Of a DNA stretch of 64,000 nt, positions 10,734-17,017 are shown in pieces. This stretch comes from a plasmid. The stretch lies in assembly GCF_054482525.1 (NCBI RefSeq), contig NZ_JBTHVG010000003.1; one strand, given 5' to 3'. A program made the position numbers and the translations under genes. The number at the start of each line of letters is the position of its first letter. Position 1 is the first letter of the stretch. The notes under the pieces are model-generated. The model was given only the letters and a program-made list of their open reading frames with translations. It had not been told where the DNA came from and did not search any database.

Positions 10734-11792
10734 ATGTCTAATGCCGCTATGAAGTTAAATGAAACATCTTCTGATGCTTATGAAAAATTAGAAGCTCTTC
10801 TTTCCCCGGATGTTATAAAGTTAAAACATTATGTGGATAAAGGTGAGTATCTTTTAGTTCTAGCAAAGGACCTTTTTGGTATTCCAGAAATGGATCCAAA
10901 GATGGCTGTGCCTGTTTTCAAAACTAAAACCTCGTATCGAGCTCCGCTGAACAAAGACTACATACCAAATCCCCGAATACTTGAACAAGTGGTTAAACTG
11001 CTTATCAGTCCGGATATAGATTTAAGTGTGTGTCTTAAAGGTGAGTCCGGTTCTGGCAAGACTGAAATGGTAATGTACATTAGCCACATGATGAATTGGC
11101 CGCTGACAATTAAGCAGATCAACAGCAATATTCGAGTTGATGAGCTTGAAGGTGAGCGCAGTCTTAATGGTGGTAATACAGGTTTTGTACACAGCGATTT
11201 GGTAACGGGATTTCGTAATGGTCACCTCATTCTTCTGGATGAAGTGGACAAAATCGATCCTGATACGGCAGCAAAACTTCACATGCCCATTGAACGTAAG
11301 CCCTGGTCACTCAGTGCTAATGGTGGTGAGGTTATAACTGCTAATGGCTACACGCGATTTATTGGTACTGCAAACACAAACATGAGTGGAGGCGCTCGCC
11401 GGTTCGTTTCTTCTCAACGTCAAGATGCAGCTTTTATAAAGCGGTTCTTGATAGTTGAAATGGAGAAGCCCGACAAAGTTGCTTTAACCAATGTGCTTAC
11501 TAAACGATATAGCTCTTTGCCTTTTCAGGTCATTGAGAAGTTCGTAAGAGTAGCGATTGCAGTAAATGACTCTGGTACAGAAGACAGTGTGATGGATATT
11601 CGTCAATTAGTAGCTTGGGTTGGCACGTCGATGACGTTAAAAACCTTTAGTCTTCTTGACACTTTCAAAATAGCTTTTGCTTCTGCTTTACCTTTACATG
11701 TGGTCGATCTTGTTCTTCAAGCTATAGATCTTTCTCTTGGCGAAGACAAGGATAAATCGCTGGAGTATTTCACAGCAAAAAAGTCGAGTTAG
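10734..11792 (+). CDS. AAA+ ATPase, CobS-like/MoxR-like
   Basis: Walker A GESGSGKTEM, Walker B LILLDEVDK, about 350 aa as in the CobS-like ATPases of conjugative elements and phages. Confidence 0.8.
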   Translation: MSNAAMKLNETSSDAYEKLEALLSPDVIKLKHYVDKGEYLLVLAKDLFGIPEMDPKMAVPVFKTKTSYRAPLNKDYIPNPRILEQVVKLLISPDIDLSVCLKGESGSGKTEMVMYISHMMNWPLTIKQINSNIRVDELEGERSLNGGNTGFVHSDLVTGFRNGHLILLDEVDKIDPDTAAKLHMPIERKPWSLSANGGEVITANGYTRFIGTANTNMSGGARRFVSSQRQDAAFIKRFLIVEMEKPDKVALTNVLTKRYSSLPFQVIEKFVRVAIAVNDSGTEDSVMDIRQLVAWVGTSMTLKTFSLLDTFKIAFASALPLHVVDLVLQAIDLSLGEDKDKSLEYFTAKKSS

Positions 11793-12109
11793 ATGGGATT
11801 TGTTATGAAACCTCTGATATTTGTATCTCAGAGTTATCCCATCTTGAATTTAGTGCGTTTTTAAGTACGGATGGTGCTGCTACCATTGCTATAGCAAAAA
11901 ACGGAACTAATTTTACTGGACTTATGCAACTGAATAACGACTATTCTTTATTGTTTTATCATGATGGTAAAATAAATATGGAAGGTCTGATTAAACAAAT
12001 GGAATTAAAAGGTTATATGTATCAGGGAGCAATGGGCAATGATGATGTTGTTGCTGAGTTTCCCGGTATTCTTTTAATTTCACCAGAGAAGCTTTAATAT
12101 CAACCCTAT

Positions 12110-12150
12110 CGGGAAATCTTTCCCGTTGGGGAGGGTTTCCCCTTTTTTTT
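12110..12150 (+). terminator. Tandem hairpins with T8 tract
   Basis: CGGGA-AATCTT-TCCCG then GGGG-AGGGTTT-CCCC followed by TTTTTTTT, immediately before the GGAG RBS of the next gene. Confidence 0.6.
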
Positions 12151-12160
12151 GGAGAAACCC

Positions 12161-13288
12161 ATGACTTTAAATACTTCAATGCTTAACAAAGTATCTGCAA
12201 AACAAATCTCTGAGAATTTTGCAAAATCATATCCAGATTTACTGGAAGGTGCAGTTATAACAAAAATTGAAATAAGTGGCTGTCAAGGATCGCGTCGAAC
12301 CGATAAAATCGATTTGTCTTATGATGGAGATGATATTACGGATCAAAAAAGCGTATCTAAAAGCGAAGTACGCTGGATTGACATAAAAGCCCTTAGCTTC
12401 AAAAGTACGATTACCAGCAGAATATCAACTCTTTGCTCACGCTTGTGCATCCGCTATAGCAATATGTGGATTTTACCAGTATCCAGTATGGAAGAGTTTC
12501 TGGAAGGGGCCCAAGAGATTGAACGAGAGTTTCAGGCAGGTATTCAAAACGTTGTAGACAATTATGAGATGCATATTGAGGCTGAAAAAAATAGAAGCCC
12601 AAGAATGTCTTCTTTGATTGATCAGTTGAAATTAACTAAAGATGATTTCATAAAATCCTTTAGATTTAATATTGCTCACTTTATTCCTTTTACGCCTATT
12701 AGCGTTGAAGGTGATGAAACCCAGGACTACTATCAGGAACAATTGATAACAGATCTGGCAGAAGAAGCAATGAAGGTTTATGAAAAAATTAGCAAAAATA
12801 ACAATTTGCGCTCAAGTACTATTGACCGACTGAAGCAAATGCAAAATAAGATCATTAGCTTCATGTTTATACATAAAGAGGCGGCAGTACTTGCAGAAGC
12901 TATAAAACACATAATGAATAATTTACCTAAAGGTGCCATTTCTGAACCTCGCGACGTTGCGGTGTTACAGCAGTGGTTTTATTTCATGAGTGATGCTTCA
13001 ATGTTAAAGCGTATTATTTCAGGAGAGCAAAAGGTTACTGACTGGTTGGAATCTATTACCAGATCATTTAATCAAAGCTCACAAACAGAACCGAACGCGC
13101 TACAGAACACAGGTATTGAAGCTATTTTAGATTCAACAAATGTGTTCCAGGTTGAACCTGTCGTAGAGAACGATATAAATAACAGCACGTTTTCAAACAC
13201 TGATCCTGTAGCTGAACCTGAGAAATCAGTTTCGCAACAGGAAGACAATGTTGAAAATGGTTTTGATATCGAGCTCAAAGGCTGGTAA
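12161..13288 (+). CDS. Hypothetical protein (between the AAA+ and vWA genes)
   Basis: Start moved to the ATG at 12161 with a GGAG RBS (the ORF-track TTG start at 12149 lies inside the terminator T-tract); no recognised motif. Confidence 0.5.
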   Translation: MTLNTSMLNKVSAKQISENFAKSYPDLLEGAVITKIEISGCQGSRRTDKIDLSYDGDDITDQKSVSKSEVRWIDIKALSFKSTITSRISTLCSRLCIRYSNMWILPVSSMEEFLEGAQEIEREFQAGIQNVVDNYEMHIEAEKNRSPRMSSLIDQLKLTKDDFIKSFRFNIAHFIPFTPISVEGDETQDYYQEQLITDLAEEAMKVYEKISKNNNLRSSTIDRLKQMQNKIISFMFIHKEAAVLAEAIKHIMNNLPKGAISEPRDVAVLQQWFYFMSDASMLKRIISGEQKVTDWLESITRSFNQSSQTEPNALQNTGIEAILDSTNVFQVEPVVENDINNSTFSNTDPVAEPEKSVSQQEDNVENGFDIELKGW

Positions 13289-13308
13289 CTGTTTGCTTTA
13301 TTAAAAAC

Positions 13309-13350
13309 CCCAGATGGGTACTTCACCATCTGGGTGAGTACCCCTTTTTT
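13309..13350 (+). terminator. Terminator-like element with two mutually exclusive stems
   Basis: CCCAGATGG / CCATCTGGG stem overlaps an alternative GGGTAC / GTACCC stem, followed by T6. Confidence 0.55.
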
Positions 13351-13365
13351 ATAAAGAGGTATTCT

Positions 13366-15378
13366 ATGAAATTAGATCTTAAATCATCACCGCGCCATAT
13401 TAAGCGTTTACAGAATATAGCAAAAGTCATTAGCGGCTTAGGCGATGTAAGAGTTGTAATAGACGACAATACCAAAGGACCGTATTTTGATCCTGTAAAT
13501 AAAGTTTGTGTTTTACCAAACGGCGATTATAGCGATGATGACTTTGTCAGTCTGATTGAAGGTTTTACCTGTCATGAAGCTGGTCATGGTCGCTATACCG
13601 ACAGCGAGGTTTACAGTGACGCCTTTAATAGTGTTCTCAAGTCATCTGAAGGGTTTACACGCTTCGATGACGGAATGAATGCAGAGTTTGAGAGCCTCGC
13701 TGAGAAACGTAAAGCTTATAGCAGGGCAAAACGTCTTACCGGGCTTATAAATCTGTTCGATGATGTACAGATGGAAGAGAAGGTTGGTAACGATTATCCG
13801 GATGCAAAGCGGCGGCTTGCAGCCACTTACGCACTGATGGTTAAAGCCGGAAGGATGACTCCTGATATATCTTCTCGTCCGGAAAATCCTGTCCTATTTA
13901 TTGAGTGGTATCTGCTTAACTCATTGCGAGTAAAAGTCCTTCAGCAGGCAGGTCACAAAGAAACACTCGATCCGTTTTTTGACTATGCCCAAAAGATACT
14001 TTCTCCAGTAATTTCTGATGTTGAGGAAATTTTTCATGATGCTCTTGGTTGTGAAAATACTCAGGGCTGTGAATCCCTTGCTCGTAAGACCCTGGCTCTT
14101 TTAGAGAGACTGCGGGATGAGGCAAGGGAACAACAGCAGCAGACAGAGCAGGAGGAGCAGGAGGCATATGATGAATCCGAGACCGATACCGATACCGATA
14201 CCGAATCAGAAGATAAATCGCTTGAGTCGACTGATAGTCGTGAGGATGATTCTGAGGACGATAGTGAAGGTCAGGCAGATACTTCCGATAACTCTGATCT
14301 TGCTCAAGAGGGATGTTCTGAGCCTTCAGAACTTGCTGAAGATAACGAGGGAAATAATGAACCCACCGGTGGCAATCCCACAGGTGATAACATTATTGAA
14401 GACGATACTGATGCGATTAACCCTTCCGAGAGTGAATCAGATGAAGCCAGTTCGACTAACGTTGAAGATGAAAGTAACTTTTCATCGGCTCAATGGGAGA
14501 TACTGGCAGATTTGTTGGATGCCTTTCTTGGCAGTGATGAGGATAGCGAAGATTATCACGATGCTTTGGCTAAAGAGATTGAAGGTATTGCATCAAAAGT
14601 ATCCGATGACGTGAAAGCCGAATTCGGTGCTTCTGAATGGGATATCCCTGATCTCCTTATCGATTTGAATGTTTACAATGAGGCTTTGTCTCTGAGTCAT
14701 TCAATCGGTAGCGACTTGTCTGTTTTACAGCAGGTTAAAATGCGTGGCCGAAACAAAACTCATGAGCGTGGAATTACCTTCGATGGAAATCGATTAATTC
14801 TGTCACCAATGGGAGTTCGTGATGTCTTCAGAGCTCAAAGCGAATCTAAAAATAGAGGGCATGTTGGCCTCGTATTAGTTCGTGATATTTCAGCGTCAAT
14901 GGCTAATGATGAAAGATATATTCATGCCATTAAGTCAGATCTTGCTTTATCGATGGCCGCTGAAAGTTTGTCAAAAATGCATGTCTCCAATATAGTCTTT
15001 CCCTTCAAGGAAAGTGAATTTGAGATTATCAAAACGTTTGATCAAAGCGTTGAGGAATCTCTATCGAAATTCACTCTTGGATGTAAGGGTTATTATACCC
15101 CTACGGGATCGGCTTTAATGGCAGCTGTTGATCTGTTACTTGACAGCCAATTCGATAGGAAAATAATTTTTCTTATAACTGATGGTTATCCGAATAAATC
15201 GGAATTTACTATCGGCGAAGTTATGGAAAAGGCTAAGTGTAATGGAATAGAAATCGTTGGTGTTGGTATTAAGACTGATGAAATAATTGGTTTTGAAACG
15301 GACACTTTCGTAACAGTTGATGATACTTCTTTATTGTCTATTGAAGTCAGTAAGCTAGTTCATCAAATACTTTCTTAA
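13366..15378 (+). CDS. von Willebrand factor A protein with acidic linker, CobT-like
   Basis: C-terminal vWA with MIDAS motif (LVLVRDISASM, later ITDG); long D/E/S/T-rich low-complexity middle region; AAGAGG RBS; downstream of the CobS-like ATPase. Confidence 0.75.
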   Translation: MKLDLKSSPRHIKRLQNIAKVISGLGDVRVVIDDNTKGPYFDPVNKVCVLPNGDYSDDDFVSLIEGFTCHEAGHGRYTDSEVYSDAFNSVLKSSEGFTRFDDGMNAEFESLAEKRKAYSRAKRLTGLINLFDDVQMEEKVGNDYPDAKRRLAATYALMVKAGRMTPDISSRPENPVLFIEWYLLNSLRVKVLQQAGHKETLDPFFDYAQKILSPVISDVEEIFHDALGCENTQGCESLARKTLALLERLRDEAREQQQQTEQEEQEAYDESETDTDTDTESEDKSLESTDSREDDSEDDSEGQADTSDNSDLAQEGCSEPSELAEDNEGNNEPTGGNPTGDNIIEDDTDAINPSESESDEASSTNVEDESNFSSAQWEILADLLDAFLGSDEDSEDYHDALAKEIEGIASKVSDDVKAEFGASEWDIPDLLIDLNVYNEALSLSHSIGSDLSVLQQVKMRGRNKTHERGITFDGNRLILSPMGVRDVFRAQSESKNRGHVGLVLVRDISASMANDERYIHAIKSDLALSMAAESLSKMHVSNIVFPFKESEFEIIKTFDQSVEESLSKFTLGCKGYYTPTGSALMAAVDLLLDSQFDRKIIFLITDGYPNKSEFTIGEVMEKAKCNGIEIVGVGIKTDEIIGFETDTFVTVDDTSLLSIEVSKLVHQILS

Positions 15379-15393
15379 TAAACTCTACCCAAT

Positions 15394-15422
15394 CGGGGCA
15401 AAAGGCCCCGGTGGGTCTTTTT
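15394..15422 (+). terminator. Terminator-like hairpin
   Basis: CGGGGC-AAAAG-GCCCCG stem, T5 tract a few nt downstream. Confidence 0.5.
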
Positions 15423-15449
15423 GCTCCATGAAGGAATAAGGAGCAAAAT

Positions 15450-15671
15450 ATGACTCAGATAAAAACTTACCGTGTAGAACATGAAAAAGTCGGTGCGATG
15501 CATAAAGTCCGTATTTTCGGACGTGTTGGTGAAGTTATAAGCAATGATAGCCCTCAGGAAAGAATCTTCCGCGAAGTCACTATAGCGGAGGGTAATAGCC
15601 AGCAGGCTGCGTTACTTGTAGATAACTACATACAGTGTCTTGAGAATAATGGCTTCACGACTGAAGCATAA
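15450..15671 (+). CDS. Small hypothetical protein (73 aa)
   Basis: TAAGGAG RBS 6 nt upstream of the ATG; bracketed by terminator hairpins. Confidence 0.45.
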   Translation: MTQIKTYRVEHEKVGAMHKVRIFGRVGEVISNDSPQERIFREVTIAEGNSQQAALLVDNYIQCLENNGFTTEA

Positions 15672-15676
15672 ATGTT

Positions 15677-15700
15677 GAGGGCCCCCGGGCCCTCTTTCTT
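15677..15700 (+). terminator. Terminator-like hairpin
   Basis: GAGGGCCC-CCG-GGCCCTC followed by a T-rich run. Confidence 0.55.
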
Positions 15701-15784
15701 AAATTCTGCGTTGTGGGTTTCTCCCTGTCTTCTGCACCGCAGAAGGCATTGAGAAACTCACAATGCCAGATAAGAGAGATCATC

Positions 15785-17017
15785 ATGACTTATGCATCCC
15801 CGGCTCTTCGTCGTAATCCACAGGAAGTATCTGAACACTTTATTAAACTCGTTCATGCTCGAATTGCTGAAGTGTCTGGCTGGAAGTATATATTCGAAAG
15901 AATACCTGCTTTCAAAGACGCTTGTGCAAAAGCCCCGAGCCAGGTTCCTTGCCCGTTTACTGGCGCAGGGAAATCGAAGTTTCGTTTCCGACAAAAAGAC
16001 CTTTATACCGGATGTGCGATCCATAATGACTTTCCGGTAAATGAGTTTTGCGACGGAATTGATGTTCTGGCGAAATATTATGAATTAAGTAAAACGCAGA
16101 CTTGCAAAAAGATTCTCTCAGATTTTTTCGGGATGGATCTGCATGCTCCGTTAACTGACGCCGACATTGAAAATGAACGACGCTATAAATCAGCAGTTCG
16201 TGCCACAGAAACTCTTGACCGAGAGGAAGTGGCAAAGCGAATGCGAAAACTTGATGTGATGTATCACTATACCGGTGAAATCAAGCCTAATACTCCTGTT
16301 GCTTTGTACCTCCGTAATCGTGGGATCTCCCGCTTACTGAGTCACTTACCAAAGGATTTAGGCTTTAATAACCGGATCTACTATTGGGATAAAGATAAGC
16401 AGAAATCGATTATCTATCCGGGAATGATTGCGATCTATCGTGACACCCGAGGTCGGCCTCTGACTATTCATAGAACATACGTAGACAAAAATGGTGATAA
16501 GGCACCTGTAGAAAATCCAAAGCTGATGATGAAGCCTCCTGCCGATATGACAGGTGGCTCAATTCAGTTGTTTGACCCTCACTATGATTCAGGTAGTTCG
16601 ACCTGGACACTGGGAGTGGCTGAAGGGATCGAGAACGCGCTTTCTGTTGTAGAAGCGACTTCAACACCATGCTGGGCAGCCAGCTCCGCATGGTGCCTTG
16701 AAAACGTTACTGTTCCTGATTTTTTACTGCCTCCGCCGGATGTAAAATCTATAAACTTTTATATCTGGGCGGATAAGGATATTGCTAACTCACAAGGCAC
16801 TCGTGCCGGTATTGAAGCTGCTCAGCGACTTCAAAGCCGCATGGTTGAGTTTTTGGCTAAACGATATCCCGCATCAAAGCTGACAATTGAAGTCTTCGAA
16901 CCAGCACAAGATATTCCTGATGGGAAAAAGGGTATCGACTGGAACGATGTTCTCCAGTTAACAGGGCAGGATGGATTCCCGATTCACTGGGCTCCTGAAT
17001 GTCTTAATCAGCTGTAA
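15785..17017 (+). CDS. DNA primase, CHC2 zinc finger + TOPRIM
   Basis: Zinc-finger-like CPFTGAGKSKFRF...C..H; TOPRIM-like GVAEGIENALS and YIWADKD; start moved to the ATG at 15785 (the ORF-track GTG at 15713 overlaps the upstream terminator). Confidence 0.7.
   Translation: MTYASPALRRNPQEVSEHFIKLVHARIAEVSGWKYIFERIPAFKDACAKAPSQVPCPFTGAGKSKFRFRQKDLYTGCAIHNDFPVNEFCDGIDVLAKYYELSKTQTCKKILSDFFGMDLHAPLTDADIENERRYKSAVRATETLDREEVAKRMRKLDVMYHYTGEIKPNTPVALYLRNRGISRLLSHLPKDLGFNNRIYYWDKDKQKSIIYPGMIAIYRDTRGRPLTIHRTYVDKNGDKAPVENPKLMMKPPADMTGGSIQLFDPHYDSGSSTWTLGVAEGIENALSVVEATSTPCWAASSAWCLENVTVPDFLLPPPDVKSINFYIWADKDIANSQGTRAGIEAAQRLQSRMVEFLAKRYPASKLTIEVFEPAQDIPDGKKGIDWNDVLQLTGQDGFPIHWAPECLNQL

What the first reader, a model, noticed from the sequence alone, without database searches (positions are those of the whole stretch)
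14183..14206. Hexanucleotide tandem repeat inside the acidic linker of the vWA protein
(ACCGAT)3-ACCGAA encodes TDTDTDTE within a long D/E/S/T-rich low-complexity region; this is a plausible site for length variation by slippage that keeps the reading frame.
Basis: seen in the sequence. Interest (0 to 1): 0.2.

Follow-up and report, generated by a model that had tools for sequence, protein, structure and literature searches.

The report
Variable in-frame hexanucleotide repeat, IncHI2 plasmid
A short 6-base repeat in the floppy acidic linker of a conserved IncHI2 plasmid protein does differ in copy number between plasmids, always in frame, and is an ordinary and probably harmless length polymorphism.

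Summary
The repeat is real but lies one base earlier than reported: (ACCGAT)3-ACCGAA is at 14182-14205. It is in frame in the 670-aa ORF 13366-15378 and encodes TDTDTDTE. It is the only tandem repeat of at least 3 perfect copies with period 4-12 in the window. Only 1 of 20,000 codon shuffles of the acidic linker reproduces it.

The window is IncHI2 plasmid backbone. Among 1,118 matching plasmids, 482 carry an identical 82-bp segment around the array. Another 126 differ by a few bases, and 509 differ by exactly one 6-bp unit. Sequenced examples show a compound array, (GAGACC)a(GATACC)b-GAA, with (a,b) = (1,1), (1,2), (1,3), (2,3), (3,1) and (4,1). Every length change is a multiple of 6 and lies inside the array. 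Both flanking haplotypes carry several copy numbers, so change has recurred.

The host protein resembles CobT and NorD: an M48-like N-domain with HExxH, a predicted disordered acidic linker, and a C-terminal VWA domain with a MIDAS motif. It sits beside an AAA_5 ATPase. Distant homologs carry other, larger in-frame tandem arrays at the same linker position.

The phenomenon is ordinary and of low interest.

The parts
14182..14205 (+). Hexanucleotide array (ACCGAT)3-ACCGAA encoding TDTDTDTE (aa 273-280). Read with the preceding GAG (14179-14181), it is the compound array (GAGACC)1(GATACC)3-GAA.
13366..15378 (+). 670-aa CobT/NorD-like VWA protein gene, annotated in RefSeq as 'VWA domain-containing protein' (WP_046788423.1).
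13366..14181 (+). N-terminal domain, aa 1-272. Predicted with high confidence as an M48-like zincin fold. HEAGH lies at aa 70-74 (13573-13587) and the invariant E137 at 13774-13776.
14185..14469 (+). Predicted disordered acidic linker, aa 274-368 (pLDDT about 32). The wider acidic low-complexity zone covers aa 251-400 (14116-14565).
14857..15375 (+). C-terminal VWA domain, aa 498-670. It carries the MIDAS residues D507-x-S509-x-S511 (14884-14898), T578 and D606.
   Evidence: Pfam. Residues invariant. Foldseek best hits are the NorD VWA domain in NorQ-NorD complexes, E about 1e-6.
14146..14164 (+). Second small in-frame tandem, GAGCAGGAG x2.1, encoding EQEEQE, just upstream of the array. It did not vary in the eight aligned sequences (window plus seven plasmids).
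10734..11792 (+). MoxR/CobS-like AAA+ ATPase (AAA_5), the presumed motor partner of the VWA protein.
   Evidence: Pfam PF07728, E = 5e-28. Weak match to TIGR01650 CobS, 34 bits.
12149..13288 (+). DUF3150 protein gene lying between the ATPase and VWA genes.
   Evidence: The same gene order is found in the Yersinia and Shewanella loci.
15713..17017 (+). DUF7146 + Toprim_3 (primase-like) gene downstream. It belongs to the same conserved gene order.

Best explanation
The feature is a short compound coding microsatellite, (GAGACC)a(GATACC)b-GAA. It sits at the very start of the disordered acidic linker of a CobT/NorD-like VWA adaptor protein, which is encoded on the IncHI2 conjugative-plasmid backbone.

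Inferred mechanism: copy number changes occasionally by strand slippage during replication, or by unequal exchange between units. The unit is 6 bases, so each change adds or removes one Thr-Asp or Thr-Glu dipeptide and never shifts the reading frame.

Inferred consequence: the linker is a tether of about 95 residues with no predicted structure, joining an M48-like N-domain to the VWA/MIDAS domain. Adding or removing 2-4 residues is therefore expected to be nearly neutral. The alleles behave mostly as lineage markers, with rare recurrent changes inside lineages.

Shown here: the repeat, its frame, the unit-sized polymorphism, its recurrence on two haplotypes, and the predicted disorder. Inferred only: slippage as the mechanism, and neutrality.
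For: The repeat and its frame are confirmed and are unlikely by chance.

Alleles seen as DNA, written (a,b):
- (1,3): window, pSTM6-275, and Enterobacter cloacae isolate 96 plasmid P1
- (2,3): pF18S019-1, pEGY1-MCR-1
- (1,2): p2018-18.25CC, pME-1a, pSW37, pSTN0717-73-1
- (1,1): pOZ181
- (3,1): pAPEC-O1-R

Alleles seen as protein:
- (4,1): P0005, ETETETETDTE, 672 aa
- ETDTE in a 91%-identical 666-aa homolog, P0016

All indels are multiples of 6 and lie inside the array.

Population counts with the 82-bp query on 1,118 plasmids: 482 identical, 126 with a few mismatches, 509 with one unit more or fewer. In the evenly spaced sample of 60 rows, 4 were +6 and 23 were -6.

Flanking SNP haplotype A carries b = 2 and b = 3. 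Haplotype B carries b = 1, 2 and 3. The nearest lineage-specific SNPs are at 14126 and 14224-5, so any recombination tract would have to be under about 100 bp.

The linker has pLDDT of about 32 over aa 274-368, between confidently folded domains. In true CobT the equivalent linker of about 90 residues is disordered and was never seen in cryo-EM (bioRxiv 10.64898/2026.07.21.739949).

Across the family, linker length ranges from 92 to 209 aa between conserved anchors. Other lineages carry different in-frame tandem arrays at the same place. Examples are a 15/45-bp array of 10.5 copies in Yersinia and a 48/144-bp array of 6.8 copies in Shewanella.
Against: No mutation rate was measured. Three or four hexamer units is a short array, and most of the variation tracks plasmid lineage and host genus: the 2-unit allele is mostly in Enterobacter, and the 3-unit allele in E. 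coli and Salmonella. Slippage is therefore evidently rare. Very short recombination tracts cannot be formally excluded for the within-haplotype exceptions. Neutrality is assumed, not tested. Allele counts come from identity bands and an evenly spaced sample, not from a full extraction of every record.
Confidence: 0.85

Rival explanations
1. The copy-number differences are fixed lineage differences moved between backbones by homologous recombination or gene conversion, and slippage at this array is not recurring.
For: Alleles correlate strongly with flanking haplotype and host genus. IncHI2 plasmids form a few dominant sequence types with distinct host ranges (PMC11058233).
Against: Exceptions keep their own lineage SNPs on both sides, within about 56 bp upstream and about 20 bp downstream of the array. 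These exceptions are H96 (haplotype A, b=2), H92 (haplotype B, b=3) and pOZ181 (haplotype B, b=1). Alleles (2,3), (3,1) and (4,1) form a series that differs by single GAGACC units. Unit duplication explains that series more simply than exchange does.
Confidence: 0.08
2. Linker length or charge at this site is functionally tuned. For example, selection adapts the AAA+/VWA machine to different hosts, so the alleles are not neutral.
For: The 2-unit allele dominates in Enterobacter-group plasmids and the 3-unit allele in E. coli and Salmonella plasmids. An acidic linker is conserved across the whole family.
Against: The host association is confounded with plasmid lineage (PMC11058233). A change of 2 residues in a disordered linker of about 95 residues is small. 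Family members tolerate linkers of 92-209 aa with unrelated repeat sequences. The gene is interrupted by IS elements in several otherwise complete plasmids, which suggests weak constraint.
Confidence: 0.05
3. The array is a phase-variation (contingency) switch, or the length differences are sequencing or assembly artefacts.
For: Simple-sequence repeats inside bacterial genes can act as on/off switches (established knowledge). Short repeats are sometimes miscalled.
Against: The unit is 6 bases, and every variant seen is a multiple of 6, so no allele shifts the frame. The variants occur in hundreds of independently sequenced complete plasmids and segregate with flanking SNPs. Random error would not produce that pattern.
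Confidence: 0.02

Closest known systems
In-frame coding microsatellites / VNTRs in intrinsically disordered protein linkers
   Same: Head-to-tail units whose length is a multiple of three. Copy number is polymorphic among near-identical relatives. Indels are confined to the array. The array lies in a low-complexity, predicted disordered segment.
   Different: The array is very short, 2-5 units in total, so it is expected to be far less mutable than classical VNTR markers. No mutation rate was measured here.
CobT, the adaptor subunit of the aerobic cobaltochelatase CobNST, and NorD (with NorQ)
   Same: Three-part architecture: an M48-like N-domain, a long disordered linker, and a C-terminal VWA domain with MIDAS. 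The gene sits next to a MoxR-class AAA+ ATPase. Foldseek's best hits are NorD VWA domains bound to NorQ. The CobT linker is likewise disordered.
   Different: Scores fall far below the CobT and CobS equivalog cut-offs (33 vs 779 bits and 34 vs 559 bits). There is no Pfam CobT N-domain hit. No cobN or nor genes appear among the 29 annotated features of the 30-kb reference stretch, most of which are hypothetical proteins. The gene is encoded on a conjugative plasmid with a DUF3150 protein and a Toprim primase-like protein. The client of the machine is unknown.
MoxR-like AAA+/VWA cluster of MOBH-type conjugative elements (pCAR1 ORF100-103, R478, Rts1, SXT, R391)
   Same: This window is IncHI2 backbone, the plasmid group of R478. 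The same ATPase/VWA pairing was already noted as conserved among these elements (PMC2642839).
   Different: That paper reports conservation and transcription only. I found no published function and no mention of the repeat polymorphism.
Phase-variable simple-sequence contingency loci
   Same: A simple-sequence repeat inside a bacterial gene, prone to slippage.
   Different: The unit length is a multiple of three and all alleles stay in frame, so the repeat cannot switch expression on and off.

Membership tests
In-frame coding microsatellite (VNTR-type polymorphism) | At least three head-to-tail copies, more than composition alone would give | tested here: met
   TRF reports 4.7 copies. It is the only such run in 64 kb. 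Codon shuffles reached it in 1 of 20,000 trials.
In-frame coding microsatellite (VNTR-type polymorphism) | Unit length is a multiple of 3 and the array lies in the reading frame | tested here: met
   The unit is 6 bases. The array starts at codon 273 of ORF 13366-15378.
In-frame coding microsatellite (VNTR-type polymorphism) | Copy number differs among close relatives, by whole units, and only inside the array | tested here: met
   Of 1,118 plasmids, 509 differ by one unit.
In-frame coding microsatellite (VNTR-type polymorphism) | Recurrent, independent changes (homoplasy) | tested here: met
   Haplotypes A and B each carry several copy numbers and keep their own flanking SNPs. This rests on eleven sequenced examples, not a full phylogeny.
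In-frame coding microsatellite (VNTR-type polymorphism) | Raised mutation rate measurable within a clonal population | not testable with these tools
   This needs long-read or amplicon population data.
Phase-variable contingency locus | Repeat changes shift the frame or alter a promoter, so that expression switches | tested here: not met
   All alleles are multiples of 6 and all proteins read through.
CobT/NorD-type VWA adaptor of a MoxR-class AAA+ motor | C-terminal VWA domain with an intact MIDAS motif (DxSxS...T...D) | tested here: met
   Pfam VWA. D507, S509, S511, T578 and D606 are invariant. The fold matches NorD VWA.
CobT/NorD-type VWA adaptor of a MoxR-class AAA+ motor | Adjacent MoxR/CobS-class AAA+ ATPase gene | tested here: met
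   The AAA_5 gene at 10734-11792. The pairing is kept in the Yersinia and Shewanella loci.
CobT/NorD-type VWA adaptor of a MoxR-class AAA+ motor | M48-like N-domain joined to the VWA domain by a long disordered linker, as in CobT | tested here: met
   [not shown]
Cobaltochelatase CobT proper (B12 synthesis) | Passes the curated CobT/cobaltochelatase models and is accompanied by CobN | tested here: not met
   TIGR02442 scores 33 bits against a cut-off of 779. There is no PF06213 hit. No cobN is annotated in the 30-kb reference stretch, where most features are hypothetical proteins.

The most novel reading that the evidence does not exclude
The (GAGACC)a(GATACC)b array could be a selected tuning knob. 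By changing the length and charge of the tether between the M48-like and VWA domains, it would adjust how the plasmid's AAA+/VWA machine engages its unknown client in different hosts. That would explain why the 2-unit allele predominates in Enterobacter plasmids and the 3-unit allele in E. coli and Salmonella plasmids.
Probability: 0.04. Interest if true: 0.35.

Novelty: new member of a known kind. Interest (0 to 1): 0.15.

Why it matters
Mostly it does not matter much. In-frame repeat polymorphism in a disordered linker is a textbook phenomenon, and this example is short and probably neutral.

It has two modest uses. First, the array gives at least six alleles in a backbone gene present in about 1,100 sequenced IncHI2 plasmids, which are major carriers of mcr-1, mcr-9 and ESBL genes. 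It could serve as a cheap extra typing marker that largely follows the known plasmid lineages. Second, the comparison shows that the linker of this plasmid CobT/NorD-like protein tolerates almost any acidic repeat of 92-209 residues. That is useful for anyone dissecting the still uncharacterised AAA_5-DUF3150-VWA-Toprim module of MOBH conjugative elements.

Tried and rejected
- Pfam on the isolated N-domain (aa 1-259), up to E = 10, gave no family.
- PADLOC gave no hit for the VWA, DUF3150 or small proteins, and only weak P-loop-type hits for the ATPase. A known defence system is therefore not supported.
- NCBIfam gave only sub-threshold CobS and cobaltochelatase hits.
- Literature searches found nothing on function. 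'DUF3150' gave one unrelated preprint. 'IncHI2' with 'von Willebrand' gave only EFSA reports. CobS/CobT with conjugative plasmid gave nothing. An IncHI2/backbone/primase/R478 search gave one unrelated review. The IncHI2 genotyping paper does not mention the gene or the repeat.
- Phase variation was considered and rejected because all alleles are in frame.
- The overlapping mechanical ORFs 14117-14614 (+, reading PIPIPIP through the array) and 13916-14167 (-) were treated as by-products of the repeat and composition. I did not test them separately. The region is annotated as the VWA gene in RefSeq, and its translation aligns with homologs down to 26% identity.
- The truncated cluster members P0007 and P0013 were checked as possible frameshift products at the array. 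P0007 is the C-terminal part of the protein, starting near aa 385. P0013 is annotated as a partial protein. Separately, the gene in pSTN0717-73-1 diverges into foreign sequence about 20 bp after the array, with a transposase gene annotated just downstream, so an insertion truncates it there.

Full report
**Observation**

The sequence ACCGATACCGATACCGATACCGAA lies at window 14182-14205, one base earlier than the 14183-14206 given in the finding. It is in frame in the + strand ORF 13366-15378 (670 aa). It encodes T273 to E280, TDTDTDTE, within ...EAYDESETDTDTDTESEDKSLE.... Tandem Repeats Finder reports period 6 and 4.7 copies at 14177-14204.

The repeat is unlikely to be a chance feature.
- It is the only perfect repeat of at least 3 copies, for any period from 4 to 12, in the whole 64-kb window.
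- Base composition predicts about 3e-6 lag-6 self-match runs of the observed length (17).
- Shuffling the codons of the acidic segment (codons 251-400) reached the observed run in 1 of 20,000 trials. Shuffling the whole ORF reached it in 0 of 5,000.

So the acidic, Ser/Thr-rich composition alone does not explain the repeat. That segment holds 29 E, 27 D, 21 S and 11 T in 150 residues.

**Where the window comes from**

The gene matches 1,121 PLSDB plasmid records at 90-100% identity. These are mostly conjugative plasmids of about 150-420 kb from Escherichia, Salmonella, Enterobacter, Klebsiella and Citrobacter. It also matches 273 of 5,426 complete E. coli genomes, almost always on plasmids. 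All eleven records fetched are typed IncHI2A, and the ten predicted conjugative ones also carry MOBH and MPF_F.

In the RefSeq annotation of pSTM6-275 the gene is a 'VWA domain-containing protein'. It lies downstream of trhU, trhN and trhI. The local gene order is AAA family ATPase, DUF3150 protein, VWA protein, a small hypothetical protein, and a toprim-domain protein.

**Does the repeat number vary?**

Yes.
- The 90%-identity protein cluster has 1,482 members, with full-length forms of 668, 670 and 672 aa.
- In an alignment of twelve members, the only internal indels are at the array: ETDTDTE, ETDTDTDTE, ETETETDTE and ETETETETDTE.
- A 223-bp query around the array matched plasmid spans of 217, 223 or 229 bp.
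- DNA alignment shows every length difference is an exact 6-bp unit inside the array.

Read from the preceding GAG codon, the array is compound: (GAGACC)a(GATACC)b-GAA. The alleles seen, written (a,b), are:

| Allele (a,b) | Where seen |
|---|---|
| (1,3) | window, pSTM6-275, Enterobacter cloacae isolate 96 plasmid P1 |
| (2,3) | pF18S019-1, pEGY1-MCR-1 |
| (1,2) | p2018-18.25CC, pME-1a, pSW37-267109, pSTN0717-73-1 |
| (1,1) | pOZ181 |
| (3,1) | pAPEC-O1-R |
| (4,1) | protein P0005 only |

One plasmid, pS7627-1, has a synonymous ACC-to-ACA interruption in the array. A 91%-identical homolog of 666 aa (P0016) has ETDTE at this position.

**Population counts**

An 82-bp query (14142-14223) was chosen to exclude the nearest lineage SNPs. 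It matched 1,118 plasmids:
- 482 at 99% identity or more (identical array);
- 126 at 95-99% (one to four mismatches, mostly the ACCGAG forms);
- 509 at 90-95% (one unit more or fewer);
- 1 at 80-90%.

In the evenly spaced sample of 60 rows, 4 were +6 bp and 23 were -6 bp. That corresponds to roughly 75 and 430 records, which agrees with the band total of 509.

One caveat applies. pOZ181, which has the (1,1) allele, was reported as two overlapping pieces at 100% identity. The top band may therefore hide a few such cases.

**Lineage marker or recurrent change?**

Both. Flanking SNPs define two haplotypes over about 800 bp.
- Haplotype A is window-like and is found in E. coli and Salmonella. It carries (1,3), (1,2), (2,3) and (3,1).
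- Haplotype B is found mainly in Enterobacter and has AC instead of GA at 14224-5. It carries (1,2), (1,3) and (1,1).

The exceptions keep their own lineage SNPs at 14126 and 14224-5. A recombination tract would therefore have to be under about 100 bp, and slippage is the simpler explanation.

Most of the variation still follows lineage. This matches the published split of IncHI2 into ST3 (Salmonella, Escherichia, Klebsiella), ST1 (Enterobacter and others), ST2 and ST4 (PMC11058233). I did not type the records myself. The array is therefore a slowly changing, not hypermutable, microsatellite. That is what established knowledge predicts for only 2-5 hexamer units.

**What the protein is**

- *C-terminus.* It is a VWA domain (Pfam PF00092, E = 2.2e-7). 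The MIDAS residues D507-x-S509-x-S511, T578 and D606 are invariant in homologs down to 26% identity.
- *Full-length AlphaFold2 model (13-sequence alignment).* The N-domain (aa 6-272) is confident, with pLDDT about 90. The segment aa 274-368 has pLDDT about 32. A helical segment (369-423) and the VWA domain (498-670) follow. The repeat (aa 273-280) sits exactly where the long helix 232-272 ends and the disordered stretch begins.
- *VWA fold.* Foldseek against the PDB gives NorD VWA domains in NorQ-NorD complexes as best matches (E about 1e-6). Rea1/MDN1 MIDAS domains and integrin I domains come next.
- *Comparison with CobT.* A 2026 preprint describes cobaltochelatase CobT as an M48C-like N-domain, a linker of about 90 residues never seen in density, and a C-terminal VWA domain with MIDAS, docked on the CobS AAA+ ring (bioRxiv 10.64898/2026.07.21.739949). 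The upstream gene here is an AAA_5 ATPase with a weak CobS match.

The protein therefore works like a CobT/NorD-type adaptor of a MoxR-class motor. It is not a cobaltochelatase. Scores are far below the curated cut-offs (33 vs 779 bits for the VWA protein and 34 vs 559 bits for the ATPase). No cobN is annotated in the 30-kb stretch.

The AAA+/VWA pairing was already noted as conserved among pCAR1, R478 (IncHI2), Rts1, SXT and R391 (PMC2642839). I found no published function.

**The linker across the family**

Two anchors are conserved: LERLRDEAKEQQQ and ESNFSxEQW...LLDDFLNSDEESxDYH. Between them the linker is acidic in every homolog. Its length varies from 92 to 209 residues, and its sequence is unrelated between clades.

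Several clades carry their own in-frame tandem arrays at the same position.
- A Yersinia/Buttiauxella clade has QQQDG/QQQDS pentapeptide repeats, with protein lengths of 601-722 aa. The DNA array has period 15/45 and 10.5 copies.
- P0055 and P0056 differ by one 16-residue unit.
- A Shewanella homolog has a 48/144-bp array of 6.8 copies.
- P0044 and P0045 differ by a 43-residue insertion.

The gene order AAA_5, DUF3150, VWA, Toprim is kept in the Yersinia and Shewanella loci. The IncHI2 hexamer array is thus a small instance of a general habit of this linker: it grows and shrinks by tandem duplication while staying acidic.

**Mechanism and verdict**

- *Shown:* a genuine, non-chance, in-frame hexanucleotide array; whole-unit copy-number polymorphism confined to the array; several copy numbers on each of two backbones; and a location in a predicted disordered tether.
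- *Inferred:* changes arise by replication slippage or unequal exchange between units, and they are nearly neutral. The reasoning is that 2-4 residues in a tether of about 95 residues should not affect how the two folded domains reach the AAA+ ring.
- *Supporting weak constraint:* IS elements interrupt the gene in several complete plasmids.
- *Rejected:* phase variation, because no allele shifts the frame. Sequencing artefact, because the alleles segregate with flanking SNPs in hundreds of independent assemblies.

The feature is an ordinary coding microsatellite. Its possible value is as a minor typing marker, and as evidence that the linker sequence is unconstrained.

Noticed in passing
[not shown]
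   Followed up: partly
window 10734-17017; L012 3348-9516; L013 3258-9397: The gene order AAA_5 ATPase, DUF3150, VWA protein, (small ORF), DUF7146+Toprim_3 is conserved between IncHI2, a Yersinia enterocolitica contig (43% identity) and a Shewanella contig (27% identity). The ATPase/VWA pair was reported as shared by pCAR1, R478, Rts1, SXT and R391 (PMC2642839). The function is unknown, and there is no PADLOC defence-system match.
   Followed up: partly
plasmid hits H1-H7; L007 about 440-735 (AP022520.1): The VWA gene is interrupted by insertion sequences (IS903B, IS1203/IS3 family, IS1B) in several otherwise complete IncHI2 plasmids. In pSTN0717-73-1 the gene diverges about 20 bp downstream of the array, next to a transposase gene. 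The gene seems dispensable for plasmid maintenance.
   Followed up: partly
L012 6770-6926; L013 6724-7047: Distant homologs carry much larger in-frame tandem arrays at the same linker position: period 15/45 bp with 10.5 copies in Yersinia (QQQDG/QQQDS) and period 48/144 bp with 6.8 copies in Shewanella. Copy number varies strongly within the Yersinia/Buttiauxella clade, with proteins of 601-722 aa.
   Followed up: yes
window 14146-14164: A second small in-frame tandem, GAGCAGGAG x2.1 (EQEEQE), lies 18 bases upstream of the hexamer array. It did not vary in the eight aligned sequences (window plus seven plasmids).
   Followed up: partly
window 14117-14614 (+) and 13916-14167 (-): Mechanical ORFs of 165 aa and 83 aa overlap the linker in other frames. 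The first reads PIPIPIP through the array. I treated them as by-products of the repeat and composition, not as genes, but did not test them separately.
   Followed up: no
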